IMG/VR virus record: IMGVR_UViG_3300044732_000293
Location: 36,842 to 100,841 of that record
Source of the DNA: a virus
DNA length: 64,000 nucleotides
Strand: one strand, 5' to 3'
Shown in pieces: positions 7,393 to 27,600 of the stretch (positions within the stretch are counted from its first letter, which is position 1; each line of letters begins with the position of its first letter). Both the position numbers and the translations under genes were made by a program. Under the pieces are notes generated by a model that saw only the letters and a program-made list of their open reading frames with translations, was not told where the DNA came from and ran no database searches.

Positions 7393-7430
7393 ACCTATTA
7401 AGTTTAGTTTTAAACTTTAAAGATTTTATA

Positions 7431-7445: not shown

Positions 7446-7451
7446 AACAAT

Positions 7452-8831
7452 ATGGCAAGTTATATCCCAAATATTACAGACGTCTTTCCAGAACCAGTGC
7501 TTTACAGTCCTGATTTTAATAGGATTGAAAGAATGCTGCAGCAGAGAGAAGGTATGTACAAGCAAGGAGCTCAACGAGTAAAAAACTTGTATGAGTCAGT
7601 TTTTAATTCCAGTATGTTAAGAAGTGATAACATCCAAAGAAGAGATGCTTATCTTAAAGCAATTGATGAAGGTCTTAAAACTGTCTCTGCTCTTGACTTA
7701 TCTCTTCCTCAAAATCAGGAAATAGCTAGTAAGTTATTTGAACCTGTTACTACAGATCAAAGTATAGTAAAAGATATTCAATTTACTAAACAGTATCAGA
7801 GTGAATCAGCTAAAGCTGAACAACTTAGATCTTCTCAAGATCCTGCTATTAGAAAACAATACTGGGATACAGGTATGAAAGCTTTGCAATATCAAGCAGA
7901 AGAGTTTAAGAATGCAAATAGTAATGAAGCATTAAGTATGGGTAGTCCTAGTTATACACCTAACGTAGATCTATTTGAGCTATCTCAGAAAATGTATAAA
8001 GATGCAGGTATTAGTATAACTCAGGATAGTGTAAATGGTGGTTATATAATTACTCAAAAGAATGGAGATAATGCTATGCCTCTTACTCAATCCATGGTTA
8101 ACATGATGTTTGATCAAGATCCAGCTATTAAGTCTATGATTCAAACTCAAGCTTATGTAAATCGTAAAGATGAGATAGGTGCTAGAGCTCCTAAGTATAA
8201 AGGTAATACTGCTTTAGCAGAACAAGAATATACTAATGAAATAATAACTGACCTAGCTTCTCAACAAAATGCTCAATTAGATATTGATACAGCTTCTTTA
8301 GGTATACTTAGATCTAATGTAGAAAAGTGGGAAAAAATGATTAAGTCTAAAGGTATTGTTCCAGGAAGTAAAGATCATGAAGAGTATATGATGGCAGTGG
8401 GCAAATTAGATATGATGGAGAAGACCGTTACTCATGGTAGAAATAATTTATTACAGATGCAGAATATTGATAAAACTAACTTAGCTGATTTAAGAACAGC
8501 TGCTGATGGTGCAATATCTTCTGTATTATATCAAAAGTTAACAGGTCAACTTTCTAAATTCTTGGCATTTAAAGATGCAAGTGTAAAAATAAAAGCTGAT
8601 CCTTTTGCTTTATCTAGTCATAATTCTAACTTATCTTTGGGAAGAGCTCAAATAATGGAATCTATTAGACAAGGTAATAGAATTAAAACATTAGAAAAGA
8701 GAAAAGAATTAGGACTTGGTAGTGGTAGTGGTGGTTCTGGTAAAACTGGACCTATTGTTATAGATGAAAAAGGAAATTCTACTGGACCTATTAATCCACA
8801 AGATATAATAGACGGACTAAAAAAAGATTAA
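7452..8831 (+). CDS. Putative virion ejection/cargo protein
   Basis: 459 aa, helical, no Cys, in the virion block. Confidence 0.55.
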   Translation: MASYIPNITDVFPEPVLYSPDFNRIERMLQQREGMYKQGAQRVKNLYESVFNSSMLRSDNIQRRDAYLKAIDEGLKTVSALDLSLPQNQEIASKLFEPVTTDQSIVKDIQFTKQYQSESAKAEQLRSSQDPAIRKQYWDTGMKALQYQAEEFKNANSNEALSMGSPSYTPNVDLFELSQKMYKDAGISITQDSVNGGYIITQKNGDNAMPLTQSMVNMMFDQDPAIKSMIQTQAYVNRKDEIGARAPKYKGNTALAEQEYTNEIITDLASQQNAQLDIDTASLGILRSNVEKWEKMIKSKGIVPGSKDHEEYMMAVGKLDMMEKTVTHGRNNLLQMQNIDKTNLADLRTAADGAISSVLYQKLTGQLSKFLAFKDASVKIKADPFALSSHNSNLSLGRAQIMESIRQGNRIKTLEKRKELGLGSGSGGSGKTGPIVIDEKGNSTGPINPQDIIDGLKKD

Positions 8832-8835
8832 TATT

Positions 8836-10701: not shown

Positions 10702-13700
10702 ATGGCAGCATTAGAAAATAATAACTTAGGAATGTCTAGTTCTGAAGATCAAGCTGTCACAGAAAATCAAGTGGATCTATCATTAGATTTATCTACAGCT
10801 GATAGTCCTATTGATCCTTTGAATGATTATAATTTAGATAACATTCAAGCTCAGAATAATAGTGTAGAGCAAGGAACTCCTGCTGTTAATAATACTCCTC
10901 AAGATCCTCCTACTAAAAAGAAAGTATATACAGAAGCTGACATTGTAGCTTTAGAAAATCAACAGAGAAAGTCTACTAAAGAGTGGGCTGAGTATGGTTC
11001 AATGATGGCTACAAAAAAATATGTAGATCCTAATCAGGCTGCTAGAAAGATATCATTTGATTCTAAAAAAACAAGATTAGATAGATATTTAGGATATGGT
11101 ACAGAAACTTTTAACAAAGTAGGCTTTAGTCCATTTGCTAATAATGAAGAAGTATTTAATAAGAATACTACAATGTGGCAGGACTATAAAAGAATGTCAG
11201 GCAACGCTGCTGCTTTAACATGGTTAGGGTTTAAACAGAACTTTGCTTTTGGTGCATTAGATTTTAATACTGAAGAAGAAAATACTAGAAAATATCAAGA
11301 GCTTAGTGATATAGGTATGTCTAGTAAAGGTGGTGTAGGTGCCTTTGGTAATAATTTAATTCTTAATGGTGGATATGGTATTGGTGTTGGGTATAGCATA
11401 TTAACAGAAGAACTTCTTATGTTAGGAGCAGAAGGTTTAACTTTTGGTGGAGCAACTCCATTGGTTGCCGCTCGTACTGCTCAAAACTTAACTAAACTTG
11501 GAAAGCTTCGTGCAATGTTTAGTGGTGCTGCTAGTAGTGGTTTTAAAAGTGTTGAACTAGCTAGAACCGGTCTTAATGTATTTAAGTCATTGAAAGGTGC
11601 AGATAAAGCTAAAGATTTTTATACATCAATAAAAACTTTTGGTAAAGCTACAGGTAACTTTCTTAATCCTTTAGCTAGAGTTACTGATGATATTATGACA
11701 GGAAGTAATGTTGTTAGAAATGCTAGCAATATGGCTAAAATGTCTAAAACATTTGGTTCTTTCTATAGAGACGTAAGAGATATTAATGTAGCTCTTGGAG
11801 AATCTAAATTAGAAGGAGGTACTAAGAAACAAGAAGTTATTGACTTTGAAATTAATAAGTATAAGGAAGCTAATGGTAAAATGCCAGAGGGCAAAGACTT
11901 ACAAAACATATATGCTAAAGCTGAAGATGTATATCAAGGTGTTGTAGGTTTAAACTTACCTATTATATATTATACAAACCGTATTACGTTTGATGGTCTA
12001 TTTAAATTTAGAGGTTTTAAAACTTTAGAACAAGCTGGTAAAACTGTAGATCTTTCTAGCAAAGGTATTAAGTTTACAGCTGGTAAAGGATTTAGTGTTG
12101 AAGCAGCTAAGAAATGGTCACAAGTTAGTCTTAGAAAGTATCCAGGTATGATGTGGAACTATTCTAAACGTAATATATCTGAAGGTTTACAGGAGAACTT
12201 ACAGAATGTAATCTCTGACGGTGTTGGGGATTATTATGATGCTGTATATAAAGATCCTACATTAGGTGGATTTAACTTTGCAGCAGCAACTGCAGCTACC
12301 AATCTTAAAAAAGAATTTACTTCTGCTCGTGGTGCTGAAACTTTTCTTACAGGTTTCTTAATGGGAGCTGTAGCAGGTCCAGCACAAAGTGTATTCCTTA
12401 CTGAAACTCCAGGACTTTACTATAGAGGTAAAGATCTTGTAATGAAGACTAATGACTTTAAAGCTTATAAAGCTAAGAAGGCTGAACAAATTAAAGAGAA
12501 GGTAACTACACTTAATGAATTATACAAGAACCCATTAGATTTCTTTAGTGCTACTCAAGAGAATGCTGCTTCTCAGAATGCTGCATACACTACAATGATG
12601 CAGGCTGAGGATAATGGTGATGCTAAAACATACCAAGATACTAAAGATATTAGTTTATTTAATCATGTATTTACATCTATTAATAATGGAACATTTGATG
12701 ATCTTATAGATGGTTATAAGCAAATGGCTAAGTTAGATCCTAAGGAGCTAGCTGACTATCTTAAAGTGGAAGATGTAACTAAAGCTAAAGATAAGATACA
12801 AGAGGTTATTACAAGAGCTGAGCAGATTCAATCTACTTATAATAAGGTTAACTCTAAGTTTCAAAATCCATTTAATCCTTCTCAGTACAAGCCTGGTGAC
12901 CCAGAGCATGAAAGAGAAGCTATTGCTTATACAGCTTTTGAAAGAGCTAAAAGAAGTTTAGCTGTAGCTGAGCATGGCTTTGAACGTAGTATAGAAAGAA
13001 TGGAAAGTCTTTACCAAGATATTTCTACTAATCGTCCTATAGAGAAATCTAGTAATTCTGATTATAGTATATTGCTAAATGCTGAGTCTATTAAGAATGA
13101 GATATATACTCTTAGAAAAGAGATTGCATCATTTGGTCCGGAGTCTCAACAGAATCCTGAACAAAAGAAGTTAGCTAAACAAAAGCTTCAAAAGTTAGAA
13201 GACCTTCAAGAGTACAGAGATAATCTTGATAGTCATTTGGCAGCTATTAAAAGCCAAGAAAGCATTCAGAATGGTGAGTTTGTAATTCAACCTATTGCTG
13301 AATCATATGAGTCTTTAAGAAATAGTTATAAGAAGTATTTAAAAAATATTGCTAAGTTATCTGGTGATTATGTATTTGATAATAAAATAGATGATTCATT
13401 TGATAAGCTTGCAGATTACTATTCTTTAAATAATGATGCTAAGAATCTTAGTAATGTTATTAATACATTGTTAGATCCAACTAACTTATATGCTCATGCC
13501 GAGACTATAAATGACAAGCTTAATAAAATTTTTGAGGATAGAGGAAGAAGCTTTGAAGAGCAAATGGAAAGCTATTCTAGAATGGCAGAGATGAATGCTT
13601 TAATAGAAGAGTTGGCTAAAGCAGGAGTGGTAATTGATCAAGATGAATTTGTAGAATATATTAAAAGTGGTAAGCGTCCTACTAAGTTTTTAGATAAGGA

Positions 13701-15288
13701 TACAGGTAAACCTGTAGACCCAGAATCTGAAAAAGCTAAAGATGCTCAGCATGCATTTGATGTAGATGACCAAATCAAGAATAGACCTAGTCCTACTACT
13801 CCTAATGTAACTACAGAAGCTGCGGCTACTCCAACAGAAGCAGAACCTACTATAGAAGAAGAGTTAGTAGCTGCAGGAGTGTCAGAAGAAGAACAAGCTT
13901 TGCGTAAGGCTTACCGTGATTACTTATCTGAAAATCCAGATGCTGACGTTAGTTATGAAGACTTTGTAACTCAATCTGCTAAAGCTGCTAGAATTAAGAA
14001 AGACTTTGCTCAAAAGAAAGTTGAGCCAGTTGCTGTTGAACCAATAGAAGAAGCTCCAGCTGAACCTACTTCTGTAGCAGAAGCTCCGGTTGTAAAAGAA
14101 GAAGTTGCAGAAGCCGCTTCTGTAGTAGACTTAAATGCAGAACTAGAAAAACAGTTTACTGAAGAAAGAGATCAAAAGCTTTCAGATTTGATGCCTCTCT
14201 ACGCTACAGCTAGAAAGACTATGATGCAATTAGGGGATGAAGCGTTAGATCCAGAAGACCGTAATATTTTAGCAGATCCTGTTAAGTATTTAGAAGGTCG
14301 CATTGCACAAGGGGAATATAGTTTACAGCTAGATATAGATAAGTTAAAAGCACTTGATACTAATAATCCTGATAATGCTAAGAAAGCTGAAAACTTACAA
14401 CGTGATATTGATACAGAAAAAATTGTTTTAGAAAAGACAAACGTTAAACTTGAGCAGATAAAGGCTGTAATAGCTGAGTATAATGATAAGATGAGTAGAA
14501 TAGGAGAAACTGTTGTTACGTCTGCTCCAGATACGTTTAATTTAGATATTCGTACAACTGTTGCAGAGAATCTATACAAACAATTGCTAGCTGGTAAAGC
14601 TTATGCAGACTTTACTCCTAATGAGTTAAATCTTATAAATACTTTATCATTTGAAAGAAGAGAAGAAATTAAATCGGAGTATGAAGAAACGCAGAGATCG
14701 GCAGAAAAAACCGGTACCCAAAAAGCTCAGGATCTAATAAATTCCGTATCTTCTATTAGGGACTTGCCTAATCTTAACTCTAGTGTAGCTAATGGGGTAA
14801 CTGTCAAGATTATAGCTCTTATGAGAGATAATCCAGATATCAAAGCTTCAGATGTTACTACTATGATAGATGTTAAACGCAAGGAATTTATAGAAAATCT
14901 ACAAACTTCTGACTTAAAACCAGGGGATATTATTACCTTTGCTGATGGTAAAAAGGGTATGGTTAAAAAGTCATCTAACCAAGAGGTAAGTATTAAACTA
15001 CCTAGGGTTGCAGATGTTTTAGTCTTAAACCAAGAAGACCTATCAAAAAGAATAACTATGGTAGAAGCAGGAACAGTAGCAAAAGCTAAAGCAGAACCTC
15101 CAGTAGAGATTGCTGAAAGTGATAAGAAAGAAGTAGAAGCATCTAGAGATGCTGTAGATGGGTTTACGTCTAATGCTGCTAAAGTACAAGAGCTTAATAA
15201 AGAAATACTTGCTAACACTGGTAAGGATAATAGTGCTAATGTAAATAACTTAATTGACAAACTTGGTTGTAAGACCAATGCTAAATAA
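10702..15288 (+). CDS. Giant virion (ejected) protein 1, with hydrophobic/Gly-rich membrane-insertion-like segments
   Basis: 1528 aa; SEGLQENLQ and GFLMGAVAG segments; first of the three-giant-gene block; single Cys near the C-terminus. Confidence 0.7.
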   Translation: MAALENNNLGMSSSEDQAVTENQVDLSLDLSTADSPIDPLNDYNLDNIQAQNNSVEQGTPAVNNTPQDPPTKKKVYTEADIVALENQQRKSTKEWAEYGSMMATKKYVDPNQAARKISFDSKKTRLDRYLGYGTETFNKVGFSPFANNEEVFNKNTTMWQDYKRMSGNAAALTWLGFKQNFAFGALDFNTEEENTRKYQELSDIGMSSKGGVGAFGNNLILNGGYGIGVGYSILTEELLMLGAEGLTFGGATPLVAARTAQNLTKLGKLRAMFSGAASSGFKSVELARTGLNVFKSLKGADKAKDFYTSIKTFGKATGNFLNPLARVTDDIMTGSNVVRNASNMAKMSKTFGSFYRDVRDINVALGESKLEGGTKKQEVIDFEINKYKEANGKMPEGKDLQNIYAKAEDVYQGVVGLNLPIIYYTNRITFDGLFKFRGFKTLEQAGKTVDLSSKGIKFTAGKGFSVEAAKKWSQVSLRKYPGMMWNYSKRNISEGLQENLQNVISDGVGDYYDAVYKDPTLGGFNFAAATAATNLKKEFTSARGAETFLTGFLMGAVAGPAQSVFLTETPGLYYRGKDLVMKTNDFKAYKAKKAEQIKEKVTTLNELYKNPLDFFSATQENAASQNAAYTTMMQAEDNGDAKTYQDTKDISLFNHVFTSINNGTFDDLIDGYKQMAKLDPKELADYLKVEDVTKAKDKIQEVITRAEQIQSTYNKVNSKFQNPFNPSQYKPGDPEHEREAIAYTAFERAKRSLAVAEHGFERSIERMESLYQDISTNRPIEKSSNSDYSILLNAESIKNEIYTLRKEIASFGPESQQNPEQKKLAKQKLQKLEDLQEYRDNLDSHLAAIKSQESIQNGEFVIQPIAESYESLRNSYKKYLKNIAKLSGDYVFDNKIDDSFDKLADYYSLNNDAKNLSNVINTLLDPTNLYAHAETINDKLNKIFEDRGRSFEEQMESYSRMAEMNALIEELAKAGVVIDQDEFVEYIKSGKRPTKFLDKDTGKPVDPESEKAKDAQHAFDVDDQIKNRPSPTTPNVTTEAAATPTEAEPTIEEELVAAGVSEEEQALRKAYRDYLSENPDADVSYEDFVTQSAKAARIKKDFAQKKVEPVAVEPIEEAPAEPTSVAEAPVVKEEVAEAASVVDLNAELEKQFTEERDQKLSDLMPLYATARKTMMQLGDEALDPEDRNILADPVKYLEGRIAQGEYSLQLDIDKLKALDTNNPDNAKKAENLQRDIDTEKIVLEKTNVKLEQIKAVIAEYNDKMSRIGETVVTSAPDTFNLDIRTTVAENLYKQLLAGKAYADFTPNELNLINTLSFERREEIKSEYEETQRSAEKTGTQKAQDLINSVSSIRDLPNLNSSVANGVTVKIIALMRDNPDIKASDVTTMIDVKRKEFIENLQTSDLKPGDIITFADGKKGMVKKSSNQEVSIKLPRVADVLVLNQEDLSKRITMVEAGTVAKAKAEPPVEIAESDKKEVEASRDAVDGFTSNAAKVQELNKEILANTGKDNSANVNNLIDKLGCKTNAK

Positions 15289-15293
15289 TAATT

Positions 15294-18200
15294 ATGGCTT
15301 GTAGATTATCAGATGAACAGGTAGAAGCGTTATATACAACAGTTCTTGGTGATATAGTTGCTACTAAGAATAGTGGTGGAATATATAATCCAGATACTGC
15401 TATACGTACATTATATCAAACTTTAATGGCAGCGGGTGCTGACCAGACAAATGCTCTTGACTATATTCAGCATGTTCCAAGAATGATCAATGCTGCTTAT
15501 GGTAGTTTAGAAGAGATAGCTGATTACTTACAGGATAGTAATGTAAGTATTGATAATCTAAATAAAATGAGAAGAGACTTTAAGGACATTAATAATGTTA
15601 TGTCTTTTCTTGATTTAAATAATAACACTATAGAGATTATAGAAGAGATTGTAGAAGATAGCAATCCTTCCACTCCTGTAGTTCCTACTGATGTATACAC
15701 TGAGATTGAGAACTCAGATGTTGAAAAGAAACAGAAGTTATATAATAATCGTTCCTTTATAGCTGCTCCTGAAACGGCATTAGCTGTTTTTAATCAGGAA
15801 GCTCAAGACTACGATGGTGCTGTAGCAGAAGATAACATTGCAGATCCTGATCCTAAGAAGAAAACTTACTATGCTGTAGTAAGAAAGATCAATGCTTTAA
15901 TGAACTTATTAAATGCTAGTACTGCTAACAATCTTAAAATGGGTACCACAACTGGTATCTTTATGAATTTAGTAAAGGCTTCATCTATTGATGAGGCTGA
16001 CTTATATGTTTCAGACACAAAATTTATTAACCAGAGTGAAGAAAACAGAGCATATCATAATGATTCTGCTTTGGCACTCGTATATACAGACAAAAATGGT
16101 AAAGTATTATATTTTGATGAAGAAGGTAATATCACAAGTAAAGAAGCTGGCGGTAAACTTGTTTACGGCAAAATAAGAAATGTTTACTCTGATGCTAGAA
16201 CAGGAAACAAGTATGTGCCTAGAGTACAAACTGTAGAGAGAAAGGTTGAGAAAGGTATGGGAACTCAAGAAGAGTTACAAGCTGAAAGACAAAAAGAGAT
16301 TGATGTTTTAGAAGGTGCTCGTAAATTTCTTAAAGAAAATCCTACAGGATCTTTAATGTTTTCTATTACTCCTGGTAGAAATGGATATGTTAATGAAGAC
16401 TTTAGTACTATTAATACTATTGGTTCTATACAATTACCTGATGGATTTAAACCTACAGTGGCTAAAGAAGATACTGGTATCTATAAGTCTGGTGGTGTAT
16501 ACTTTCATGTTCCAGGTTATTCTCTTCCTATTCTTGTACGTAGACCTAAGTTTAGCCAATTAAATAATAATCTAGCTGAGAACTTAGCTGACTTGTTATT
16601 TGATAATACTAATAATAAACAGTCTAATGCTGAAAAGATTGCTATTGTAAAACAGTTTACATATAGTAATGACACTAAAGTATTTGACCGTGACGGTAAG
16701 ATTTTTGTAAAGCAAGGAGAGCAAGAGTTAGATACCACTGTTGCTGCTAATCGTGAAGCATTCTTACAGAACTTAAATGGTCAAGTAGTAAACATTAATA
16801 AAGACTTAGTTAATGGTTACGTAGATATGCCTGTAAATCTAGATGGTAGTGTACAAGTTCAAAAGGAGTTATACAATAACTTTTTAACTAGTAACTTCTA
16901 TACTCACTTAGCTAAAAATGCTGAGGGTAAGGTGGTAAGCATGAATGCTTATAACAATATCTTTCCTACAGTAGAATCTCAAACTAAGTTATTTGGAGAA
17001 ACTAAGACTACTAAAACTGCTCCTGTTAGTTTAACGGAAGCTACTCCTACAGATAATAAGATTAGTCCTTTAGCTGAATTGCTAAAGAATACTGACTTCT
17101 CTTTAAAGAAATCTATATTAGAGAACAGTGATGCTACAGAAGAGCAGATTGAAAAAGCAAGAGCTTGGTATACTAGTAGCCCATTAGCTAAAGTGGTTCC
17201 TTTTGAAACTATGTTTCATGTAGTGAACTCAAATGCATTAGCTACATTTACTTTATCTGGTATTACTCTATTCCAAGGATCTAACTACACTGACTTATAC
17301 CATGAGGGATGGCATGCTTTCTCTCAATTGTTTTTAACTAGAGATCAGAAAGTTGATTTATATAATGAAACTAGAAAGCTTACAGGATCTTTTAAAACTG
17401 CTGATGGTAGAACTATAAAGTTCAGTGCAGCTAGTGATATTCAATTAGAAGAATTCTTAGCAGAAGACTACCGTAAATACGGTATGGCTGATGGTAAGTA
17501 TATAGTTGCTGGTAGAGGAACTCGTAATACATTATTTAGACGTATACTAAACTTCTTAAAGGCTGTATTTAAAGGATACAGTATTAAAGATGCTATTAGT
17601 GAAGCTACAGCTATTCCTAAGATAGGAGAGCTTTATGAAAAGCTTTACATAGGAAATATTAATGACTATAGTGCATCATTAAACAATGTACAGTTTAAGA
17701 TATTAAACAAAGGTGCTCAACCTTTAGATGATAAGAATATTGACGGTGGATTAAACTACCAAGATTCTATGACTCTTGTAGAAACTATTGATTCATTGAT
17801 GGCTTCTACATTACAAGACTATGGAGTTAATCTTGGTGTACTATTTACTAATCCAGAATTTACTGCTCCATTATATGCAGAGATTAAGAATAAATTAGAG
17901 AACATGTTAAATGCTCCTGATCTTTCTGAAAGCTCTAAAAGAATATTAAACTTTGCTTTAAATGAGTGGGGTGATTATACAGCTGTTAGCAAAGGAGAAC
18001 AGGAGTTAGGTGTTATTGCATTTCATAAGAAGAGATCTTCTTATTTAACTTTTGATGAAAAGTATTCAGATCTAACTGGAGCTGAACAAGATATTAATGA
18101 AAATGCAGCTGATGTAGTTAAAGATGAAGACAACCAATTATCTATTACAGAAAATGAAGCTCGTGAAAGTTTTGGAGCTAATGCTTTTGAACGCAAGGGT

Positions 18201-21200
18201 AATGAGTTATCAGTTAGAGAACTAGCTAGTAACCAAACTGTATATTTAATTAAGAGTCTTCCAGCTTTAGATAAGAACGGTAAGGTGGAAATGAATGCTT
18301 TAGGTGTTCCTAAATTAACTGACTTTAATAGAACCTGGGGAGTTGTTATAAATACTGTACAGGGAGCTATTGATGAGGTGGATATGTATAGAAAGCTTAG
18401 TGAAGCATCTACTAGATTTCCTGAATTAAAGGCTTTAGTTGAACGTCTAGGTGATCCTATGGAAAAGACTCAGACTTCAGACTGGCCGGCTATGAACATG
18501 TGGATTAACTTCCATCGTGATTTTAGTGTGTACCGTGTACCTGTTAGAGAAGTTCGTATAGTTAAAAGTGAAATTCCAGGAGAAGAAGGATCTACATTTA
18601 GTGTAGAGTTCACTGAAACTAACCCTACATTTAAGCAAGTTGAGAATACCTTTAAGTCTCAGTTTGATGCTGTAAGAAACAATAAGTATGTACGAAATAC
18701 TCCTCAAGGTAATCAATTAAATATAGAGTCTATACTTAATGATTTTCCTAAGAGCACTCTTATGAGTGGTACATCTAAACTTAACTCTGAGCAAGCTATT
18801 AAGTTTTTAAAAGCTATTGGTTTATACATGACTGATAACCAAGCAGTTAGAGAAAGTTTAAATGAAAATTATACAGCAGTTACTTATTTACATTCTGCTC
18901 TATCTAGAATTAACTATTTTAATTCTTCTAAAGAGGCTGGTAGTAAAATAACTATCAATAGTCCAATAGACTTTTTACGTAATGAATTAAAGAACGTTAC
19001 TACTAAAGATAGTAAGGGTAACACTACTCTTTTACATAAAGGGGAGTCTTCTAATATAGAAAAGCTTCTTAATATAGAAGGAACTAACTCTGGTAAGTAT
19101 AGTAATAATTCTGTAGAAAACGTTAATGGAGATTCTATATTTGATCTATCATTAAACAATACAGTTACTAAACAGTTTGCTGAGTTGAATGCTGCAGGAA
19201 AGAACTATAATGATGTAGTTGGAAAGCCTCACATGGCTCATTTAAATTTTAGAAATAATCCAGCTGCTAAATACAGCATTTGGATGAACAGTATGTTCCA
19301 TATTCCTACAGGTAACTTTGAGACAGCTAACATGAATCAAAGAAGAGTGGGTAAGACTAATGCTGAAACTGTTACTATTGATATAGTAAACTTAGATGGT
19401 ATTAAAGAAGTGGTTAGCAATGAGGCTAAAGCTCAATTTAGAGTGAATGGTATTAAGACTACTTCTGCTGACCCAGCTACTAAGTTTATAATGGACTTAC
19501 ATACTATGTTGATGAGAGGTGTGATTGAAGCCCCTAGACATGCTTCTAAATCTACAGCATATGGTTACTCAGTATCTTTACTCAATACACCATTTAATGC
19601 CAAATCTCGTCACTTATACATCAGTAGTGAGTACTTTGCAGATGATGCTGTAGCTAACAATGCTACGGTAGCTATGCTTAAGCCAAAGATTGCTGCTGAG
19701 ATGGAACGTATAGCTATGCTTAGGGCAGGTATGCTTCCTAATATTCCTGGGTTTAATGAAAGAGGTCAAACCTTTACAATGTTTGATGACATTCTTTCTG
19801 ATGGATTAAAGGCAGACTTAATAGAAATGGCTAATGCTGATGACTCATTAGTGCTTCTAGAAGATGCTGAGTTATCAAAAAGAATATCTAATGATATATC
19901 TAAGTATATAAATAGATTAACTCAAGAGAATCTAGATGTGTTTGGTGAAATGCCATTCATTTCTAAAGATATCTTAAGAGGTGGAGCTAGAGGATCTGCT
20001 AAAAGTATTGTGAGTTTAATAGGTGCCGGGGCTAATTTAACTGATGCTCAACTTAAGACAATAGCTCTTAAGTCATTCACTGTAAATGCTCTTATCCATA
20101 ATATGGAAAGCATGGCTATGGTCTATGGAGACTTAGCTATGTATAATCATAATAAAGAAGAGTTTCATAAGCGTAATGCTTCTATAGGATCTACTGGTAG
20201 AATTTTTGCTTCTGGTCAAGCTACTACTAACTTTGTAAATAACCTTGGTAGAGCCTATGCTAAAAAGATAGGAGCTACTGAAAGAACCTTTGATGGCAGT
20301 ATTAACTCAGTGATATTTAAAGATAATAACGTTGAATCAGTATATTATAATGAATATCTTGATGCTCTTGTTGCTAAAGGATATACTAAAGAACAAGCTG
20401 CTTCTGTATTAAAACCTTATTCAGAAATGAATGAAGGTGATGCTCAAGGATGGGTAACTTTTGATTCTTACCGTATGTTCTCTATTTTAGAAGGAGCATG
20501 GTCTGAGAAGCAGAATGATCTTTATAACAAGATTATTAATGAAGAAGAGGTTGATCCTAAAGAAATTAGTGAATTCTTCCCTACAAAGAAGTTTCAGTAT
20601 GCTGGTCCTGTTAAGAGTGACAAGTTACATTTACAAGCTTTTCATAAGTTCTCATTAGTACCGTTAATCCCTAGTTTAATTAAAGGGACTAATATGCAAA
20701 CCGTGCATGATAACTTAGTTAAACAACAAGTGGATTATGCTCTATTTGAATCTGGAAGTAAGTTAGCTACTATTACTAAAGATGGTCAGTATGATGATCT
20801 ATATGATAATAAAGAAGAGAGAACTACTAAGCCTTGGAATCAAGGAGATGCTGAGTACACTACTAATAAAGTGTTTATTCAGTATTTAAAAGATCAAGTG
20901 GATATTCAATCTACTTGGAAAAACAAAACTGTATTCTCCACTCAGCTTAGAAAGTTGATTATCAATGACTTATTTAAACAAGGTATAGCTACATCTAAAG
21001 ACTTTAACAAGTTAGTAACTGACTTTGAGGGTTTACTTGATGATCTTCAGACTAAAAAGAAGAATGAGTTACTTGCTGAAGCTGGTTGGACACAAGATAA
21101 AAAAGGAAACTATAACGGTAGTGTAAAAAGTCTAATGGACTTTGTTGAAAGAGAGTTAGCTCGTCAAGAACTACCTGAGCATGATGTAGACTTTGTAAGA

Positions 21201-24200
21201 GAGAGTTCTGATATTAATAGTATTAAGAGAGACTTAAGCTTTAGCCTTAACGCTGAGAAGATTGAAAAGTTGTTAAACTCTATCGTAATTAAACGATTAG
21301 TTCGTCAGAAGATGAACGGTGAGCAGTTAGTACAAGTTTCTGGAGCTGGCTTTGAGTCTAGTACTAAGTTAACTAACCCTACAGAAGAAGATATTAAGAA
21401 CTATCGTGGTACTAATGACTTACCTACATACCGTCCTGGTAAAGGAAAGAACGGTAAGACTAGTGCAATGAAAGTTAAGATTGCAATGAAAGGGGACTAT
21501 TATAAGTTACTTGAGCTTAAACATACTGACGGAGAAAAGATTGGTACAAGAGAGCGTTTGAATGAAGTGCTTAAAAATGATGAGTGGTTAGATAAAAACG
21601 ATAACCGTAAGCTTATTACTATGGTAGGTGTACGTATTCCTGTGCAAGGATTAAACTCTATGGAGTTTATGGAAGTGTATGAGTTCCTTCCTGAAGAAGC
21701 AGGGTCTATTGTTATACCTCCAGCTGAGATTGTGGCTAAATCTGGATCTGACTTTGATATTGATAAGTTAACTATATTCCAACCTAACTATTCTAAGAAT
21801 AGCAAGCAGGCTAAGTATAGTACAAATGATAATGTTAAAGGTACAGAGAATAAGATTATTGAAAAGATCCGTGAGATTTTAGAGCATCCTGATAACTTTG
21901 AAGCTCTTATTCGTCCAAACAATACTGATATTGTTAAAGGAGTAGCAGATAACTTAGCTAGTAAGAATGTTCAAGGATACAATCCTTTGGCTAATAAAAC
22001 TAGAGAAACTGCTAATAAGATTAGTCCTACTCGTACTTTAGAACCTAGATATAATCTATATAAGCATGAGTCTAATAACATTGGGAAAAAGACTTTAGGT
22101 ATTGGTGCTGTAGATAATGCCTACTCATCTATCTTTAAAAGAATAGGTGCTAGATTAGAGACTCAGTATACTCATTATCCAATTGATTTTGAAACTGGAG
22201 AATATAAGAGAGATAAAAAAACCGGTAAGATTGTACAACAAGTTCGTCCTATTAACATTAGAATGAAGCATAACAGTATGACTGTAGGTGGTAAATCTTA
22301 TATTTCTTTATCTGATATTAATACAGTTAGTGGTGAAAAGATTTCTGACTTAATCTCTCAATTGATGAACGGTTGGGTGGATATTGAAAAAGATGCTTGG
22401 ATCTTTAATATCAATGGTAACAATGTAGCTGGTCCAGTATTGTTATTCATGATTGAATCAGGTGTTGATTTTAAGACAGCTGCTCATTTTATATCTCAAC
22501 CTTTAATTGTTGATTATATCAAACAAAGAGCTGCTTCCAATAGTCCTTTCTTTGAAGCAAGTGGCAAAGGAGAGAATAAGGGTAAAGGACTTAATAAATT
22601 TAATATTAAGAAGCAGTTTATACTAGACAACTTTGAGGATGATTTACCTATTAATAAAAGTACAGGAGAACCTATTGTAAGCAATGATGGTATATATAAA
22701 ATCATTAATAAGTACAATGAGGGTGTTGAATATACTAGTGATAATCTATTAGGTGTTATTGAGAATAAAGACACTACTTCTTCTATGGCTAAAGCGGCTT
22801 TATTACATTTCTTTGAATTAGAAGACTTAATGAGTCAATTGACCAATATTAAACTAACGGTTAACTTAGATACAGCTCCTTCTAAATCATTGTTTTCTGC
22901 TCAAGAAAGACTTAGTAAAATATCTAAGTTAAATATTGTAGATGCTGTGCCAGCTGACATGGTTAGAAAGATATTGAATGAGTCTCCTATTAAGTCATTC
23001 CTTGTACAAGACTTTCAGTTAAAACTATGGGAGCCTTTAATGAAGCTTAGAGGAGATGCTAACATAAATAGCTTCTTAATAAATAAGATTGCTACTAAGT
23101 CTTATACAAATAGTTTTGATGATGCTGAGAAATATGTAGCTACATTTAAAAATGACCTTCCTTTATATCTTTTACAGAATCATTTAAAGGGGATGGACAT
23201 TACTAAGATTACTGAATACAAAGGCTTACTTATAGATAACGCTATTCCTGTACAAAATGTTCAGATTAAGAACGGTGCTTATGTAAAAGAAGGCGTAATG
23301 TATGTAGATATAGATCAGATAAAGTCTGACTTTGCAAGCATGGCTTATACAGATAAGGGTACTTATAAAGAATCAGGATTGGCTACTCTTCCTGCTCAAG
23401 CTTTTAAGATGGGTGAGACAAGTGCTAACTTCCAAGAGTATTCTAACTATGTACTAGAGCGTGAGTATTTAAGATCTATCCTTCCAGTAAGAGATAAAGA
23501 AAGCAGAGAAAGCTATGAGAATAGACTTAGAGATAGAGCTTTGGAAAGAACATTTAACTTCTATACTATGCTTAAGTCTGATAATAGTATTGCAGATGAG
23601 TTTAATAGAATTAAATCTAAGTATCCTGAGTTAGAAAAAGACTACATGATCTTTGATCAATTAGGTTATAGTCCAGGTAGCAAGTTTGATATGAACAAAC
23701 TTAAGACTCTTAAGTTAAAGTCAAGTAAGCTTGATGCTGATATGGCTAATGTTCTTCATGAAAATCTTCAGAGACTTGCTGACCCAGCAACAATTAAAGT
23801 AACTAATCCTGTAGCTAACGCTGAGATATCTAAGTTCTTTAGTAGAATGATTATATCAGAATACTTGAGAGCAGGTATTAGCAAGACTAATGATAGTATT
23901 GCAATGATTTTACCTTCAGAATCTTTAATGAAGCTTTTGGAAGAGCCTATGAGTAAGTTGACTAAAGAAGGATTGACTGATGAGTTTTTAGAAAAGTATT
24001 CTAATTTGTTTGATTCAAACTGGTCTAAGTCTGCTACAGCAGTTCGTAATAGATTCAGAAACTATATCCAAACTACTAAACCTACAATACAAGAACCTAT
24101 TACAGAAGCTACTGCGGTAACTCCTATCACTCCTTCTATAGCTAGTTTTAAAAATAAGTTTGCAAAGAGTGAGCTTGAGCCTATATTAAACGCTAATAAA

Positions 24201-24653
24201 AACACTATATTTGTATACCCTGTAAATGAAAACGGTACAGGTGATAACATTGCTAAAGTGTACAGTGACGCTGGAAATAGTGCGGGTGTAGTTTTAAAAG
24301 CTGTAGGAAAGAACTGGACAGATGCCACTTATGATTCTAACATTAGTTTTATAAACCAATCATTAGATGTTATTGGTGCTCATTTAAGTAATGGTTTCCA
24401 AGTAGCATTCCCTGAGTTTGGTTTAAACTTAACTAAGGTTAAAGAGGAATCAGTAGATTTTTTAACTAAGTCTGCTCCTAAAACGTTTGACTATTTGGCT
24501 ACAGAGTTATATAAAAGATTTGGATACGTTCATCCTGGAGCTGAGCAAATGCTAGGCTTTAGAAAAGAGTTCCAATCCAATCAACCTATATCAGACCAAG
24601 AGATTGATGCTGCTATTAATAAGAAATTTGAAGATTCTAAAAACTGTAATTAA
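15294..24653 (+). CDS. Virion-packaged double-psi-barrel RNA polymerase with N-terminal zincin-like motif
   Basis: 3119 aa; catalytic KSGSDFDIDK (DFDIDK at 21750-21767) preceded by RIPVQG; HEGWH at 17301-17315 with downstream EEFLAE; layout matches the crAss-like vRNAP. Confidence 0.92.
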   Translation: MACRLSDEQVEALYTTVLGDIVATKNSGGIYNPDTAIRTLYQTLMAAGADQTNALDYIQHVPRMINAAYGSLEEIADYLQDSNVSIDNLNKMRRDFKDINNVMSFLDLNNNTIEIIEEIVEDSNPSTPVVPTDVYTEIENSDVEKKQKLYNNRSFIAAPETALAVFNQEAQDYDGAVAEDNIADPDPKKKTYYAVVRKINALMNLLNASTANNLKMGTTTGIFMNLVKASSIDEADLYVSDTKFINQSEENRAYHNDSALALVYTDKNGKVLYFDEEGNITSKEAGGKLVYGKIRNVYSDARTGNKYVPRVQTVERKVEKGMGTQEELQAERQKEIDVLEGARKFLKENPTGSLMFSITPGRNGYVNEDFSTINTIGSIQLPDGFKPTVAKEDTGIYKSGGVYFHVPGYSLPILVRRPKFSQLNNNLAENLADLLFDNTNNKQSNAEKIAIVKQFTYSNDTKVFDRDGKIFVKQGEQELDTTVAANREAFLQNLNGQVVNINKDLVNGYVDMPVNLDGSVQVQKELYNNFLTSNFYTHLAKNAEGKVVSMNAYNNIFPTVESQTKLFGETKTTKTAPVSLTEATPTDNKISPLAELLKNTDFSLKKSILENSDATEEQIEKARAWYTSSPLAKVVPFETMFHVVNSNALATFTLSGITLFQGSNYTDLYHEGWHAFSQLFLTRDQKVDLYNETRKLTGSFKTADGRTIKFSAASDIQLEEFLAEDYRKYGMADGKYIVAGRGTRNTLFRRILNFLKAVFKGYSIKDAISEATAIPKIGELYEKLYIGNINDYSASLNNVQFKILNKGAQPLDDKNIDGGLNYQDSMTLVETIDSLMASTLQDYGVNLGVLFTNPEFTAPLYAEIKNKLENMLNAPDLSESSKRILNFALNEWGDYTAVSKGEQELGVIAFHKKRSSYLTFDEKYSDLTGAEQDINENAADVVKDEDNQLSITENEARESFGANAFERKGNELSVRELASNQTVYLIKSLPALDKNGKVEMNALGVPKLTDFNRTWGVVINTVQGAIDEVDMYRKLSEASTRFPELKALVERLGDPMEKTQTSDWPAMNMWINFHRDFSVYRVPVREVRIVKSEIPGEEGSTFSVEFTETNPTFKQVENTFKSQFDAVRNNKYVRNTPQGNQLNIESILNDFPKSTLMSGTSKLNSEQAIKFLKAIGLYMTDNQAVRESLNENYTAVTYLHSALSRINYFNSSKEAGSKITINSPIDFLRNELKNVTTKDSKGNTTLLHKGESSNIEKLLNIEGTNSGKYSNNSVENVNGDSIFDLSLNNTVTKQFAELNAAGKNYNDVVGKPHMAHLNFRNNPAAKYSIWMNSMFHIPTGNFETANMNQRRVGKTNAETVTIDIVNLDGIKEVVSNEAKAQFRVNGIKTTSADPATKFIMDLHTMLMRGVIEAPRHASKSTAYGYSVSLLNTPFNAKSRHLYISSEYFADDAVANNATVAMLKPKIAAEMERIAMLRAGMLPNIPGFNERGQTFTMFDDILSDGLKADLIEMANADDSLVLLEDAELSKRISNDISKYINRLTQENLDVFGEMPFISKDILRGGARGSAKSIVSLIGAGANLTDAQLKTIALKSFTVNALIHNMESMAMVYGDLAMYNHNKEEFHKRNASIGSTGRIFASGQATTNFVNNLGRAYAKKIGATERTFDGSINSVIFKDNNVESVYYNEYLDALVAKGYTKEQAASVLKPYSEMNEGDAQGWVTFDSYRMFSILEGAWSEKQNDLYNKIINEEEVDPKEISEFFPTKKFQYAGPVKSDKLHLQAFHKFSLVPLIPSLIKGTNMQTVHDNLVKQQVDYALFESGSKLATITKDGQYDDLYDNKEERTTKPWNQGDAEYTTNKVFIQYLKDQVDIQSTWKNKTVFSTQLRKLIINDLFKQGIATSKDFNKLVTDFEGLLDDLQTKKKNELLAEAGWTQDKKGNYNGSVKSLMDFVERELARQELPEHDVDFVRESSDINSIKRDLSFSLNAEKIEKLLNSIVIKRLVRQKMNGEQLVQVSGAGFESSTKLTNPTEEDIKNYRGTNDLPTYRPGKGKNGKTSAMKVKIAMKGDYYKLLELKHTDGEKIGTRERLNEVLKNDEWLDKNDNRKLITMVGVRIPVQGLNSMEFMEVYEFLPEEAGSIVIPPAEIVAKSGSDFDIDKLTIFQPNYSKNSKQAKYSTNDNVKGTENKIIEKIREILEHPDNFEALIRPNNTDIVKGVADNLASKNVQGYNPLANKTRETANKISPTRTLEPRYNLYKHESNNIGKKTLGIGAVDNAYSSIFKRIGARLETQYTHYPIDFETGEYKRDKKTGKIVQQVRPINIRMKHNSMTVGGKSYISLSDINTVSGEKISDLISQLMNGWVDIEKDAWIFNINGNNVAGPVLLFMIESGVDFKTAAHFISQPLIVDYIKQRAASNSPFFEASGKGENKGKGLNKFNIKKQFILDNFEDDLPINKSTGEPIVSNDGIYKIINKYNEGVEYTSDNLLGVIENKDTTSSMAKAALLHFFELEDLMSQLTNIKLTVNLDTAPSKSLFSAQERLSKISKLNIVDAVPADMVRKILNESPIKSFLVQDFQLKLWEPLMKLRGDANINSFLINKIATKSYTNSFDDAEKYVATFKNDLPLYLLQNHLKGMDITKITEYKGLLIDNAIPVQNVQIKNGAYVKEGVMYVDIDQIKSDFASMAYTDKGTYKESGLATLPAQAFKMGETSANFQEYSNYVLEREYLRSILPVRDKESRESYENRLRDRALERTFNFYTMLKSDNSIADEFNRIKSKYPELEKDYMIFDQLGYSPGSKFDMNKLKTLKLKSSKLDADMANVLHENLQRLADPATIKVTNPVANAEISKFFSRMIISEYLRAGISKTNDSIAMILPSESLMKLLEEPMSKLTKEGLTDEFLEKYSNLFDSNWSKSATAVRNRFRNYIQTTKPTIQEPITEATAVTPITPSIASFKNKFAKSELEPILNANKNTIFVYPVNENGTGDNIAKVYSDAGNSAGVVLKAVGKNWTDATYDSNISFINQSLDVIGAHLSNGFQVAFPEFGLNLTKVKEESVDFLTKSAPKTFDYLATELYKRFGYVHPGAEQMLGFRKEFQSNQPISDQEIDAAINKKFEDSKNCN

Positions 24654-24659
24654 TAAAAT

Positions 24660-27600
24660 ATGGCTTGTAGTATAATCCGTAATAAAGAAACTAATCAACT
24701 TGAACAAGTATTGGCTCCTAATGGTAAGGAGTCTTTACTATTTAACGGTATTTTAGATATTCAATATGATCCTGAGCAATCTTTAAGATTGTGGGCTCAA
24801 GTGTATACTGATTCTTTTAAGAAAGAAAAAGGTGATTGGGAAACAAACAAGGAAGAGTCAGGTGTACAGTTAGATCAAAATGGTGAACCTCTTATCCAAT
24901 ATATCACTGGACTAAATGAGGTGCCCCCTACAGATACAGAAGATTTTAATAAAGCTCCAAGTATTGAGAGTCAAAAGAAGACCATTGGTAATAACATTGC
25001 AGCTGAACTTGCCTTTACAATATCTAATAACTTAAATATTCCTTATAGTAATATTACTGCTAATGAAGCACGTGAAATAACTGAAGCTGCTAAAAACCCA
25101 TGGAATGGTGAACCAGCTTTCTTCTTTGGAGGTAAAGTGTTCTTTGTACAAGATGGCTTTACAACTGATAGTGTATTACATGAATTCTCTCACCCACTAA
25201 TAGCTGCAGTGTTTACTCAGAATAAAGACTTGTTTAATAAGTTATATTCTGACATCTTAATGACTGAAGAGGGTAAAGCTATTTTAGAACAAGTTAAAGC
25301 TCTATATCCTGAGCTAGTAGAAGACGATACTCACTTTCAGCAAGAGATTCTTACTAGAGGATTGGCTAAAGAAGCTGAGAATGAAACTAATCAGATCAAG
25401 AACTCTAAGTCTTTTACAGACTTTATCAATAAGATGATCTTTGCTTTTAAACAAGCTTTACGTAAGATCTTTGGAAAAGATGTAAAGATTGAAAAGCTTT
25501 CTACCAAAACCAATCTTTCTGAGTTAGCAGATATGCTAAGAAATGATCAGTTCAATATAAACACTGAGATATTTACAGAAGAAGATATGGTGGACTACCT
25601 GCGTGATATCTCTAACTTTACTAAAGAGTTGATGGCCGTAGAACAAAGTGAAATGGCTATGGCTTCTAAAAGATTCTATAGCGTAGTTAGTAGTCAGATA
25701 AGACGTATTAGAGAAAATGGCAACTATAGTGAAGCCCGCAAGTTTTTAGTAGATGAGTACACTAAACGTGGTGATCTTCAAGAACTTAAAGACACTCTTT
25801 CTAGTGCAGATATTGATAAATTACTAGATGAAATGTATGAAGATGTGCAAGCTCGTGAAAAAGCTGTACAAAGTTTTGTACATGCAACTCATCAATTAGA
25901 TAAAGTTGCAAATAAAATTTATAGTCATATACAAGAGTTAGCTACTAAAGGTGATTCTCAAGAAGTTATTAAAGATATTTTTTATTATGACTTGTTAATG
26001 AGAAACTGGAGTACATTTATAGATCAAACTATAGATGGTCTTAGTGATGCTGGACTTCCTCCTAGTTCTGACTTTTCAAAATTAGCTTCAAGTATTAAAA
26101 ATACAATTGATCAAAGTAGTAGAGCTATTAGTAAGATCTATGCTAATGCTCTTGATGGTGTAATGCTTGAGCACTTAAAACCGCTAGCTGAGGAAATAGA
26201 TAGATACTATTCAGATATTATTAAACAGCTTACCGATACTAATCAGAAACAATCTGAGATTGATAGAGTCCAAAAGAAGTGGGATGCTCATAAGTTAACT
26301 AAAGAAAGAGTTAATGATTTACTTACAGGTAATGCTAAAGATACTAATATTTTTTCCGCTTTTCTTGAATCATATACTAATAGTCCTGACCCTATAGTTG
26401 GTGGATTTGCTATGTTCTTAAAATCTTCTTACAATGATGTGGATGCTGAAATGCTTCGTTTAAGTAATGAAATGTCTACGGAGTTAGGTCCTTTATTAGA
26501 TGCTGCTGGTTATAGTAATACAAACTTTGCTAAACTAATGAAAGAATTAGTTTATGAAGAAAATAAACCTTATCTAGATTCAAAAGATGGTTTAATGAAG
26601 ACTAGAAAAGTTTTTGCTTTTAAGTCTCAATTTAAAGATCATTTAGTACAAGTTGCTAATTTGCAACATGATTATAATTTAGCAGTAGCATCTGGTGATC
26701 AAGCTTTAGCTGATCAAAAGATTAAAGAAATTAGACAGCATAAAAGAGATTACTTCCACCAAGAATACCTTGATGAGTATTATAACCGTGAGCAAATATA
26801 TGATTCTGAAGAAGGTAAAGAAGCTTATAGAAGAAAACATGAGCTTTTAAATGAGATTAAAAATCTTACAGACCAAGAATATGACGTTGAGCATCTTCAA
26901 GAAATCTTATCTCAGAAGAAAATTTTATGGAGACAGTATTCTCAATTAGCTTCTTTAACAGATGAGAACGGTAATCCTAAAGTTGGACGTGATCTTGAGA
27001 TAGCTAAAATAGAACGTCAATATAGAAAAGAATCTAAAAAGTTCTTTGAATGGCTTCCTACTAATAAGTTTGAATCCACATTAAGAAGAATGGAACAAGA
27101 CTTGGTAGACCAAGGTATTGCTCCAGATAGTCAAGAGTTTAAGATAGCTAGAGATAAATGGATTAAAGAGAATACAGTTATTGCGTATACTCCTGAGTTC
27201 TTTGAAGAAAGAAATCAGATTATTGCTGACTTAAGAGCTTTTATGGAAAAGCTTCCTAAATCTACACAGGACCTAGTAGATTCATCTGAAGAGATGGAAA
27301 ACATGTTAGATCTTGCTGTTGGGTTTAGAGACCAAGATGGTCAGATTATTGGGGGAGATTTTAGTCAAACCTCTAAGGATAAAGTAAAAGCGTATCAGAA
27401 ATCTATACAAGATAAAAGAAAGAGTTTATATAACGGGCTTACAGATGATGAGCAATCAGAACTTGATTCTCTATTTACTAGAAAGGATTTTGCAGTAGGT
27501 AAAAGACTGTCTCCAGAAGATGACGCTAGACTAAGCGAGCTTATTGATAAGGGTATTAGTCTTAGAATCAACGTTCTTCAGAAAGCAGAGTTGGCTACTT

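What the first reader, a model, noticed from the sequence alone, without database searches (positions are those of the whole stretch)
15268..24668. Only four cysteines in 6468 aa, all at the junctions of the three giant virion proteins: a head-to-tail disulfide chain?
Seen (by-eye scan of the translations): protein 1 (1528 aa) has one Cys, 6th from its C-terminus (KLGCKTNAK, 15268). The vRNAP (3119 aa) has two, at residue 3 (MACRL, 15300) and the penultimate residue (KNCN, 24645). Protein 3 (1821 aa) has one, at residue 3 (MACSI, 24666). The outer ends of the trio have none, and the three upstream cargo proteins (2095 aa) have no Cys. Known: ejected phage proteins such as the N4 vRNAP avoid Cys. 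Inference: the C-terminus of each protein is disulfide-bonded to the N-terminus of the next, giving a ~6500-aa chain in gene order. This could fix 1:1:1 packaging and ordered threading through the tail, with release by reduction in the cytoplasm.
Basis: partly seen in the sequence, partly recalled or inferred. Interest (0 to 1): 0.88.

Follow-up and report, generated by a model that had tools for sequence, protein, structure and literature searches.

The report
Terminal cysteines chain crAss cargo proteins
Three giant proteins that this crAss-like phage probably packs and injects, with its RNA polymerase in the middle, have no cysteine except one at each end that faces the next protein; relatives gain such a pair wherever a gene is split and lack it wherever genes are fused, which points to untested end-to-end disulfide links.

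Summary
P1 (10702-15288) has one Cys at -6. The RNA polymerase (15294-24653) has Cys 3 and -2. P3 (24660-30125) has Cys 3. The three upstream ORFs have none, while the rest of the genome has 1.14% Cys.

The pattern is not chance (placement P about 2e-11). It is conserved in 250 homologues, 77 IMG/VR loci and cultured phages (phi14:2, crAss001, Fpv1, p-crAssphage type). In the 77 loci, 132 of 134 junctions carry a Cys on both sides, and the two exceptions sit at homopolymer runs and look like frameshifts. The outer ends of the trio never carry one.

At least seven apparently independent gene splits and fusions obey one rule: a split shows a new facing pair, a fusion lacks it, and an extra ORF inside the chain has a Cys at both ends. 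In crAss001 the first gene lies on the other strand, which excludes a DNA-level signal.

A solved analogue exists. In cyanopodophage A4, gp27 (sole Cys at -3) and gp26 (sole Cys 5) are disulfide-bonded in the cryo-EM map.

A head-to-tail tether is therefore well supported by comparison. The bond itself and its role in ordered ejection are untested in crAss-like phages. I found no paper describing the rule. This scan noted it before in at least 78 other genomes.

The parts
4342..7392 (+). Cargo-like ORF C1, 1016 aa, no Cys
   Evidence: homologues lie upstream of P1 in related loci
7452..8831 (+). Cargo-like ORF C2, 459 aa, no Cys
8836..10698 (+). Cargo-like ORF C3, 620 aa, no Cys
10702..15288 (+). 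P1, 1528 aa, first chain member; free N-terminus without Cys
   Evidence: Of 81 homologues, 76 have a Cys in the last 10 residues and none in the first 8
15268..15270 (+). TGT, Cys1523 of P1 (6th from the C-terminus, motif LGCKTNAK)
15286..15296 (+). Junction 1: tandem stops TAA TAA, then TT, then ATG of the RNAP gene
15294..24653 (+). Virion RNA polymerase, 3119 aa, middle chain member
   Evidence: PDB 6VR4 hit at E 4.5e-27. Of 120 homologues, 113 have an N-terminal Cys and 119 a C-terminal Cys
15300..15302 (+). TGT, Cys3 of the RNAP (MACRLS); invariant column in the 33-sequence alignment A1
17301..17315 (+). HEGWH (residues 670-674), invariant H-E-x-x-H, zincin-like motif
21750..21764 (+). 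DFDID catalytic motif (residues 2153-2157)
   Evidence: phi14:2 has DFDID at 1361-1365
24186..24500 (+). DUF7831 (PF25176) near the RNAP C-terminus
   Evidence: E 3.7e-6
24645..24647 (+). TGT, Cys3118 of the RNAP (penultimate residue, SKNCN)
24651..24662 (+). Junction 2: TAA TAA AAT ATG; RNAP and P3 are in the same frame but separated by two stops
24660..30125 (+). P3, 1821 aa, last chain member; free C-terminus without Cys
   Evidence: Of 49 homologues, 48 have a Cys at residues 2-4 and none in the last 10 residues
24666..24668 (+). TGT, Cys3 of P3 (MACSIIRN); invariant in alignment A2
25179..25193 (+). HEFSH (P3 residues 174-178), invariant H-E-x-x-H

Best explanation
P1, the virion RNA polymerase and P3 are cysteine-free cargo proteins. 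Their only cysteines lie 1-10 residues from the ends that face each other. Shown here: this rule holds across the family and follows every change of gene architecture. Inferred: in the virion, Cys1523 of P1 pairs with Cys3 of the RNAP, and Cys3118 of the RNAP pairs with Cys3 of P3, most likely as disulfides that form once the particle leaves the reducing cytoplasm. The result would be one nearly linear thread of about 6,470 residues, with a free P1 N-terminus and a free P3 C-terminus. Because the links sit at the very tips, the joined proteins could still pass a narrow tail channel one after the other, each pulling the next. The absence of all other Cys would prevent wrong cross-links in the particle and in the oxidising periplasm. 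Thiol reductants in the host cytoplasm would then free the three proteins. The ejection and release steps are inference only.
For: (1) The counts are exact and far from chance. (2) Conservation down to 24-31% identity. RNAP homologues: 113/120 have an N-terminal and 119/120 a C-terminal Cys, with 37 internal Cys in 398,860 aa. P1: 76/81 C-terminal, 0/81 N-terminal. P3: 48/49 N-terminal, 0/49 C-terminal. (3) In 77 IMG/VR loci, 132 of 134 junctions have a Cys on both sides. The two exceptions sit at A10 and A5 homopolymer runs and look like frameshifts. (4) Splits show a new pair. In L017 the RNAP is split into 602 aa (Cys 3, -2) and 2440 aa (Cys 4, -3). The ORFs of 242-261 aa in L051, L057, L058 and L060 match the C-terminal module of the unsplit RNAPs of L044 and L045. 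The ORFs of 574 and 583 aa in L038 and L075 match the N-terminal module of long P3s. Each of these extra ORFs has exactly two Cys, one at each end. The unsplit relatives checked (RNAPs of L044 and L045; P3s of L034 and L065) have only their terminal Cys, so no Cys at the split position. (5) Fusions lack the pair. P0116 (4470 aa, P1+RNAP) has one Cys, its last residue. Fpv1 gp33 (4401 aa; the P1 part is inferred from length and position, since only its RNAP core matched) has one Cys at -2, and gp34 starts MAC. The RNAP+P3 fusions of p-crAssphage type and cr271_1 keep only the N-terminal Cys, and the upstream protein keeps its Cys at -2. On an RNAP-core tree these are at least 7 apparently independent events. 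(6) In crAss001, gp47 (only Cys at -3) is on the opposite strand from gp50 (Cys 5, -9) and gp49 (Cys 5), so the signal is in the protein, not the DNA. (7) A solved analogue: A-4L gp27 (1717 aa, sole Cys 1715) and gp26 (1114 aa, sole Cys 5) follow the same rule, and cryo-EM shows that disulfide (PMC12002296). (8) Disulfides are seen in tail and portal-vertex proteins of purified crAss001 virions (PMC10172136).
Against: No experiment shows the bond in any crAss-like phage. The phi14:2 RNAP was purified and crystallised alone in DTT or TCEP. Many hosts are strict anaerobes, so oxidation in nature is uncertain. Gut Intestiviridae carry 7-14 internal Cys in the fused RNAP-P3, so Cys avoidance is not absolute. 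A 775-aa protein of a p-crAssphage-type genome has a single Cys at -2 with no evident partner. Junction motifs co-vary, but the genes are linked, so this is not independent evidence. The P0116 fusion is known from a protein record only; its contig could not be fetched.
Confidence: 0.72

Rival explanations
1. The facing termini dock on each other and the Cys are key contacts or share a metal ion, but no disulfide exists under natural (often anoxic) conditions. The tether would be non-covalent or metal-bridged.
For: Conserved, lineage-specific motifs surround the Cys and co-vary across each junction: SKNCN with MACSIIRN, FMKKCFGE with ML.CPNK, DPFKC with M.C[EQD]VK. A His next to the Cys is common (FMxHC, MAQHC). 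Many hosts are anaerobes.
Against: One Cys per side is too few for a usual metal site. The A4 analogue with the same signature is a disulfide in the cryo-EM map. Disulfides are seen in other proteins of crAss001 virions.
Confidence: 0.13
2. The Cys pair in another way: RNAP N-terminus to its own C-terminus plus P1 to P3, or homodimers through the same Cys.
For: Four Cys allow several pairings; parity alone does not decide.
Against: A split shows new Cys exactly at the two new ends, and a fusion lacks exactly the two facing ones. Extra ORFs inside the chain have two Cys and end members have one. None of this is expected under other pairings.
Confidence: 0.07
3. Each terminal Cys anchors its protein to another virion part (portal, capsid, tail) or carries a modification such as a lipid.
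For: Other virion proteins of this phage are Cys-rich. Tail proteins of crAss001 are disulfide-linked to each other.
Against: The outer ends never carry a Cys (0/59 P1 N-termini, 0/65 P3 C-termini). The Cys always come as facing pairs (132/134).
Confidence: 0.04
4. The TGT codons are a by-product of a DNA or translation signal at the gene junctions (both have TAATAA...ATGGCTTGTAG).
For: The two junctions of the window look alike at the DNA level.
Against: crAss001 gp47 keeps its C-terminal Cys although no chain gene follows it on that strand. The flanking residues and the Cys position vary (3-6 from the start, -1 to -10 from the end) while the Cys stays.
Confidence: 0.01

Closest known systems
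Cyanopodophage A4 (Anabaena phage A-4L) ejection proteins gp27 and gp26 (PNAS 2025, PMC12002296)
   Same: Two large adjacent ejection proteins. The sole Cys of the upstream one is at -3 (Cys1715 of 1717) and the sole Cys of the downstream one is residue 5. Cryo-EM shows these two joined by a disulfide in the pre-ejectosome.
   Different: BLASTP found no similarity to six crAss reference proteins. A4 has one link between two proteins and no RNA polymerase. The paper does not state a rule that follows splits and fusions.
RNA-polymerase cargo block of cultured crassviruses: phi14:2 gp078-gp077-gp076 (RNAP = PDB 6VR4) and crAss001 gp47-gp50-gp49
   Same: Homologous RNAP and the same trio of giant virion proteins. 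I found the same terminal Cys pattern in both phages.
   Different: The papers read here (bioRxiv 10.1101/2020.03.07.982082; PMC10172136) do not mention the terminal Cys or a link between these proteins. They say only that the order of ejection probably depends on packing and on interactions between the proteins.
Cys-free ejection proteins of Schitoviridae (N4 gp50, DEV gp71-73; PMC11445570)
   Same: Giant virion RNA polymerase and co-ejected proteins almost devoid of Cys. The authors explain this by passage through the periplasm.
   Different: Those proteins have no Cys at all, so no terminal pairs. The RNAP belongs to a different family (T7-like single-subunit; from general knowledge, not tested here).
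Fused 'polyprotein' forms of the crAss RNAP block (noted in the phi14:2 paper, citing Yutin 2018)
   Same: Same modules in the same order, joined by peptide bonds instead.
   Different: In this window the genes are separate, each closed by two stop codons. The literature assumed that the fusions are cleaved. The Cys rule suggests instead that linkage itself is what is kept.

Membership tests
crAss-type virion RNA polymerase (phi14:2 gp66 / PDB 6VR4 family) | Sequence similarity to the solved polymerase core | tested here: met
   phmmer E 4.5e-27; query residues 1497-2205 against chain residues 774-1428
crAss-type virion RNA polymerase (phi14:2 gp66 / PDB 6VR4 family) | DFDxD catalytic motif | tested here: met
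   DFDID at residues 2153-2157; D2153, D2155 and D2157 are invariant and F2154 and I2156 nearly invariant in 33 homologues
crAss-type virion RNA polymerase (phi14:2 gp66 / PDB 6VR4 family) | Packed in the virion and ejected into the host | not testable with these tools
   Inferred from homologues detected in phi14:2 and crAss001 virions
Cys-depleted ejection proteins | Cys frequency far below that of the phage's other proteins | tested here: met
   4 Cys in 8563 aa against 1.14% elsewhere in the genome
Head-to-tail disulfide-linked ejection proteins (A4 gp27-gp26 type) | The only Cys lie within a few residues of the facing C- and N-termini | tested here: met
   Window, A-4L, 132/134 junctions in relatives
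Head-to-tail disulfide-linked ejection proteins (A4 gp27-gp26 type) | Physical disulfide in the virion | not testable with these tools
   Seen for A4 by cryo-EM; no data for crAss-like phages
Head-to-tail disulfide-linked ejection proteins (A4 gp27-gp26 type) | Sequence homology to A4 gp26 or gp27 | tested here: not met
   BLASTP of A-4L gp25-gp29 against the window's six cargo ORFs (C1-C3, P1, RNAP, P3) and the phi14:2 and crAss001 trios gave no hit. It works like this system but is not a sequence relative.
Fused RNAP-block polyprotein | Modules in one open reading frame | tested here: not met
   Three separate ORFs, each ending in TAA TAA
Zincin-like metalloprotease domain | HExxH motif plus a family profile match | tested here: inconclusive
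   Invariant HExxH in the RNAP (670-674) and in P3 (174-178), but no Pfam or PHROG match

The most novel reading that the evidence does not exclude
Crassvirales as a whole, and by convergence some other podophages such as A4, stitch their injected proteins into one redox-cleavable thread of about 0.7-1 MDa. Peptide bonds and terminal disulfides would be interchangeable ways of keeping the modules joined in a fixed order. Chain membership and ejection order could then be read from sequence alone: one terminal Cys marks an end member and two mark an inner member.
Probability: 0.5. Interest if true: 0.85.

Novelty: new variant of a known kind. Interest (0 to 1): 0.78.

Why it matters
How crassviruses, the most abundant phages of the human gut, move about a megadalton of protein through a narrow tail, and in what order, is an open question. 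The 2023 crAss001 atlas says so explicitly. The cysteine rule gives a concrete hypothesis that can be tested on cultured phages (phi14:2, crAss001, Fpv1) with a non-reducing gel or disulfide mapping.

It also gives a sequence-only way to tell which proteins belong to the injected chain. It suggests that the 'polyprotein' forms are the same linkage made by peptide bonds, and not simply precursors to be cleaved. The single disulfide seen in phage A4 would then be one case of a wider principle.

Tried and rejected
- Complex prediction on RNAP 2900-3119 with P3 1-450. The window-only job gave 'no answer' (score 0.00, partner poorly folded). This counts neither for nor against binding.
- A scan for close relatives of P0116 found only distant phages. 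L084 (record G001) turned out to be a crAss001-like genome.
- A scan with the split N-terminal module of L017 found only L017 itself, so that split rests on one contig.
- Megablast of the region against GenBank phages found no match.
- PHROGs gave no hit for the three giants. Pfam gave only DUF7831.
- Stop-codon read-through fusing RNAP and P3 (same frame) is rejected because both junctions have tandem TAA TAA.
- The two HExxH regions are not detectably paralogous.
- Literature searches found no description of the terminal-Cys rule in crAss-like phages.
Full report
**Observation.** The + strand of the window carries a run of large ORFs. An exact count gives the following.
- P1 (10702-15288, 1528 aa) has one Cys, the 6th residue from the end.
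- The 3119-aa protein (15294-24653) has Cys 3 and Cys 3118, the penultimate residue.
- P3 (24660-30125, 1821 aa) has Cys 3.
- The three ORFs upstream (4342-10698, 2095 aa) have no Cys.

The window is part of a 100,841-bp IMG/VR virus record. Its other ORFs contain 1.14% Cys, so 73.6 Cys would be expected in the trio (Poisson P of 4 or fewer = 1.4e-26). The chance that four Cys each fall in one of the four facing 6-residue ends is 1.8e-11.

**Identity.** The middle protein matches the solved RNA polymerase of Cellulophaga phage phi14:2 (PDB 6VR4, E 4.5e-27). It has the catalytic DFDID at residues 2153-2157, whose three Asp are invariant in 33 homologues. Calling it the vRNAP is therefore justified. 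The phage is only about 24% identical to GenBank crassviruses over the polymerase core and has no nucleotide-level match there. PHROGs gave nothing for the three giants, and Pfam gave only DUF7831 near the RNAP C-terminus.

**Conservation.** Counts use the first 8 and last 10 residues.

| Protein | Homologues (identity) | N-terminal Cys | C-terminal Cys | Internal Cys |
|---|---|---|---|---|
| RNAP | 120 (31-95%) | 113 | 119 | 37 in 398,860 aa |
| P3 | 49 | 48 (residues 2-4) | 0 | 7 in 98,692 aa |
| P1 | 81 (down to 24%; some from marine (Tara) samples) | 0 | 76 | 1 in 137,140 aa |

In 77 IMG/VR loci fetched with an RNAP alignment, translated and classified by BLAST:
- P1 has a C-terminal Cys in 58/59 and an N-terminal Cys in 0/59.
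- The RNAP has them in 65/66 (N) and 72/72 (C).
- P3 has them in 68/68 (N) and 0/65 (C).

Counted by junction, 132 of 134 have a Cys on both sides. The two exceptions sit at homopolymer runs. In L060 the RNAP starts MVNCSLS and shifts frame at an A10 run. In L068, P1 is broken at an A5 run. The Cys sits at residues 3-6 from the start or -1 to -10 from the end.

**Cultured and reference phages.**
- phi14:2: gp078 has its only Cys as the last residue. The RNAP gp077 has Cys 3 and -2. gp076 has Cys 3.
- crAss001: gp47 has its only Cys at -3. gp50 has Cys 5 and -9 plus one internal Cys. gp49 has Cys 5. gp47 is encoded on the opposite strand, away from gp50, so the pattern cannot come from a DNA or translational-coupling signal at gene junctions.
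- IAS virus and a second crAss001-like genome follow the same terminal pattern with more internal Cys.

**Natural experiments.**
- Fusions lack the pair.
  - P0116 (4470 aa) aligns to P1 and then to the RNAP in one chain. Its single Cys is its last residue.
  - Flavobacterium phage Fpv1 gp33 (4401 aa, RNAP core at residues 2461-3587) has a single Cys at -2, and gp34 starts MAC. That its N-terminal part corresponds to P1 is inferred from length and position, because only the RNAP core matched.
  - In a p-crAssphage-type genome and in cr271_1, the RNAP is fused to the P3-like part. The fusion keeps only the N-terminal Cys, and the upstream zincin-type protein keeps its Cys at -2.
- Splits show a new pair.
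  - In L017 the RNAP is two ORFs, of 602 aa (Cys 3 and -2) and 2440 aa (Cys 4 and -3), with a clean stop-start overlap.
  - In L051, L057, L058 and L060 an ORF of 242-261 aa lies between the RNAP and P3. It is homologous to the C-terminal module of the unsplit RNAPs of L044 and L045, whose only Cys are residue 5 and the last residue. It has exactly two Cys, residue 3 and the last.
  - In L038 and L075 an ORF of 574 or 583 aa is homologous to the N-terminal module of long P3 proteins. It has Cys at 3-4 and at -3. The unsplit P3s of L034 and L065 have only the N-terminal Cys.
- On a FastTree of the RNAP core these are at least seven apparently independent events. The long branches (Fpv1, phi14:2, L017) are uncertain.

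The rule is that an inner chain member has a Cys at both ends, an end member has one, and a peptide bond replaces a pair. A head-to-tail chain predicts this. Other pairings, anchoring to other virion parts, or lipid modification do not.

**Known precedents.**
- Cys avoidance in ejected proteins is documented for Schitoviridae (proteome 0.865% Cys, vRNAP homologues 0.00075%). It is explained there by passage through the periplasm (PMC11445570). Those proteins have no terminal Cys.
I read the paper: cryo-EM shows a disulfide between Cys1715 on the C-terminal helix of ejection protein gp27 and Cys5 of gp26 (PMC12002296).
- I then checked the A-4L genome. gp27 (1717 aa) has only Cys1715 and gp26 (1114 aa) has only Cys5. 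The genes are adjacent and in that order. This is the same sequence signature, with the bond seen experimentally. BLASTP found no similarity to the crAss reference proteins.
- The crAss001 atlas shows disulfides in tail and portal-vertex proteins of purified virions. It lists gp45, 46, 47, 49 and 50 as cargo that must partly unfold to pass the tail. It does not mention terminal Cys (PMC10172136).
- The phi14:2 paper notes that the three proteins are fused in some phages and assumes cleavage. The RNAP was purified in DTT.
- Five literature searches found no description of the rule.

**Mechanism.** The sequence rule and its behaviour under gene rearrangement are shown. The rest is inferred, as follows.
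- The facing termini recognise each other. Lineage-specific motifs co-vary across each junction, although the genes are linked, so this is weak evidence.
- The termini become disulfide-bonded after the particle leaves the reducing cytoplasm.
- The links sit at the tips, so the chain stays nearly linear and can thread through the tail, each protein pulling the next.
- The lack of other Cys prevents wrong cross-links.
- Cytoplasmic reductants release the proteins.
- A disulfide is unlikely to set 1:1:1 packaging by itself, because assembly takes place in the reducing cytoplasm.

**Caveats.**
- No bond has been demonstrated in a crAss-like phage.
- It is unknown whether the Cys oxidise in anoxic habitats.
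- Gut Intestiviridae have 7-14 internal Cys in the fused protein.
- One p-crAssphage-type protein of 775 aa has a lone Cys at -2 without a partner.
- The L017 split and the P0116 fusion each rest on one record.
- The co-folding job gave no answer.

**Earlier notes and verdict.** This scan has noted the same pattern in at least 78 other genomes. I scored on my own tests. The chain reading is well supported by comparison and by a solved analogue, but remains untested by experiment. It is a new variant of a known kind, the A4 inter-protein disulfide. It is highly testable and bears on how crassviruses inject their cargo.

Noticed in passing
window 17301-17315 and 25179-25193: Invariant HExxH motifs in the RNAP N-terminal part (HEGWH, residues 670-674) and in P3 (HEFSH, residues 174-178). 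They look like two zincin-type metalloprotease sites in the chain. The two regions are not detectably similar to each other, and neither matches a Pfam or PHROG family.
   Followed up: partly
window 15286-15304 and 24651-24670: Both junctions read TAATAA, then 2-3 bases, then ATGGCTTGTAG. Each has tandem stop codons and an identical start context. The RNAP and P3 are in the same reading frame.
   Followed up: partly
window 1832-4336 (residues 565-592): The 834-aa ORF just upstream of the Cys-free block has only four Cys, clustered as C-x2-C-x11-C-x11-C. This may be a small metal-binding knuckle.
   Followed up: no
L013, L018, L020, L072, L080 and others, C2 homologues: In several lineages the homologue of cargo ORF C2 has a conserved internal pair, Cys128 and Cys133/134. 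The window's C2 has none.
   Followed up: no
L092:16825-17114 (cr108_1, NC_055878): The RNAP gene is interrupted exactly inside the catalytic motif (..AKAGSD | about 290 nt | .YDIDK..). It looks like an intron. The upstream part has no N-terminal Cys, which is consistent with a fused P1-like part.
   Followed up: no
L060:9229-9421; L068:7629-7632: Apparent frameshifts at an A10 run (60 codons into the RNAP) and at an A5 run (inside P1). These may be sequencing errors or slippage sites. They are the only two junction exceptions.
   Followed up: partly
L087:6482-8809 (CrAssphage ZA, MK238400): A 775-aa protein upstream of the chain has a single Cys at -2 and no evident partner. The same record and cr108_1 encode thioredoxin-like genes near the cargo block.
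   Followed up: no
L090 (A-4L gp26) against P0054-P0057, P0045, P0049: The N-terminus of A4 gp26 (MSKHCGLEA) resembles one variant of the crAss RNAP N-terminus (MAQHCALS, MAKHCNLS). This could be convergence or very distant kinship.
   Followed up: no
L087:17379-29591; L091:11158-25020: Gut Intestiviridae RNAP-P3 fusions carry 7-14 internal Cys. Cys avoidance is much weaker there than in the window's clade (about 0.01%).
   Followed up: no
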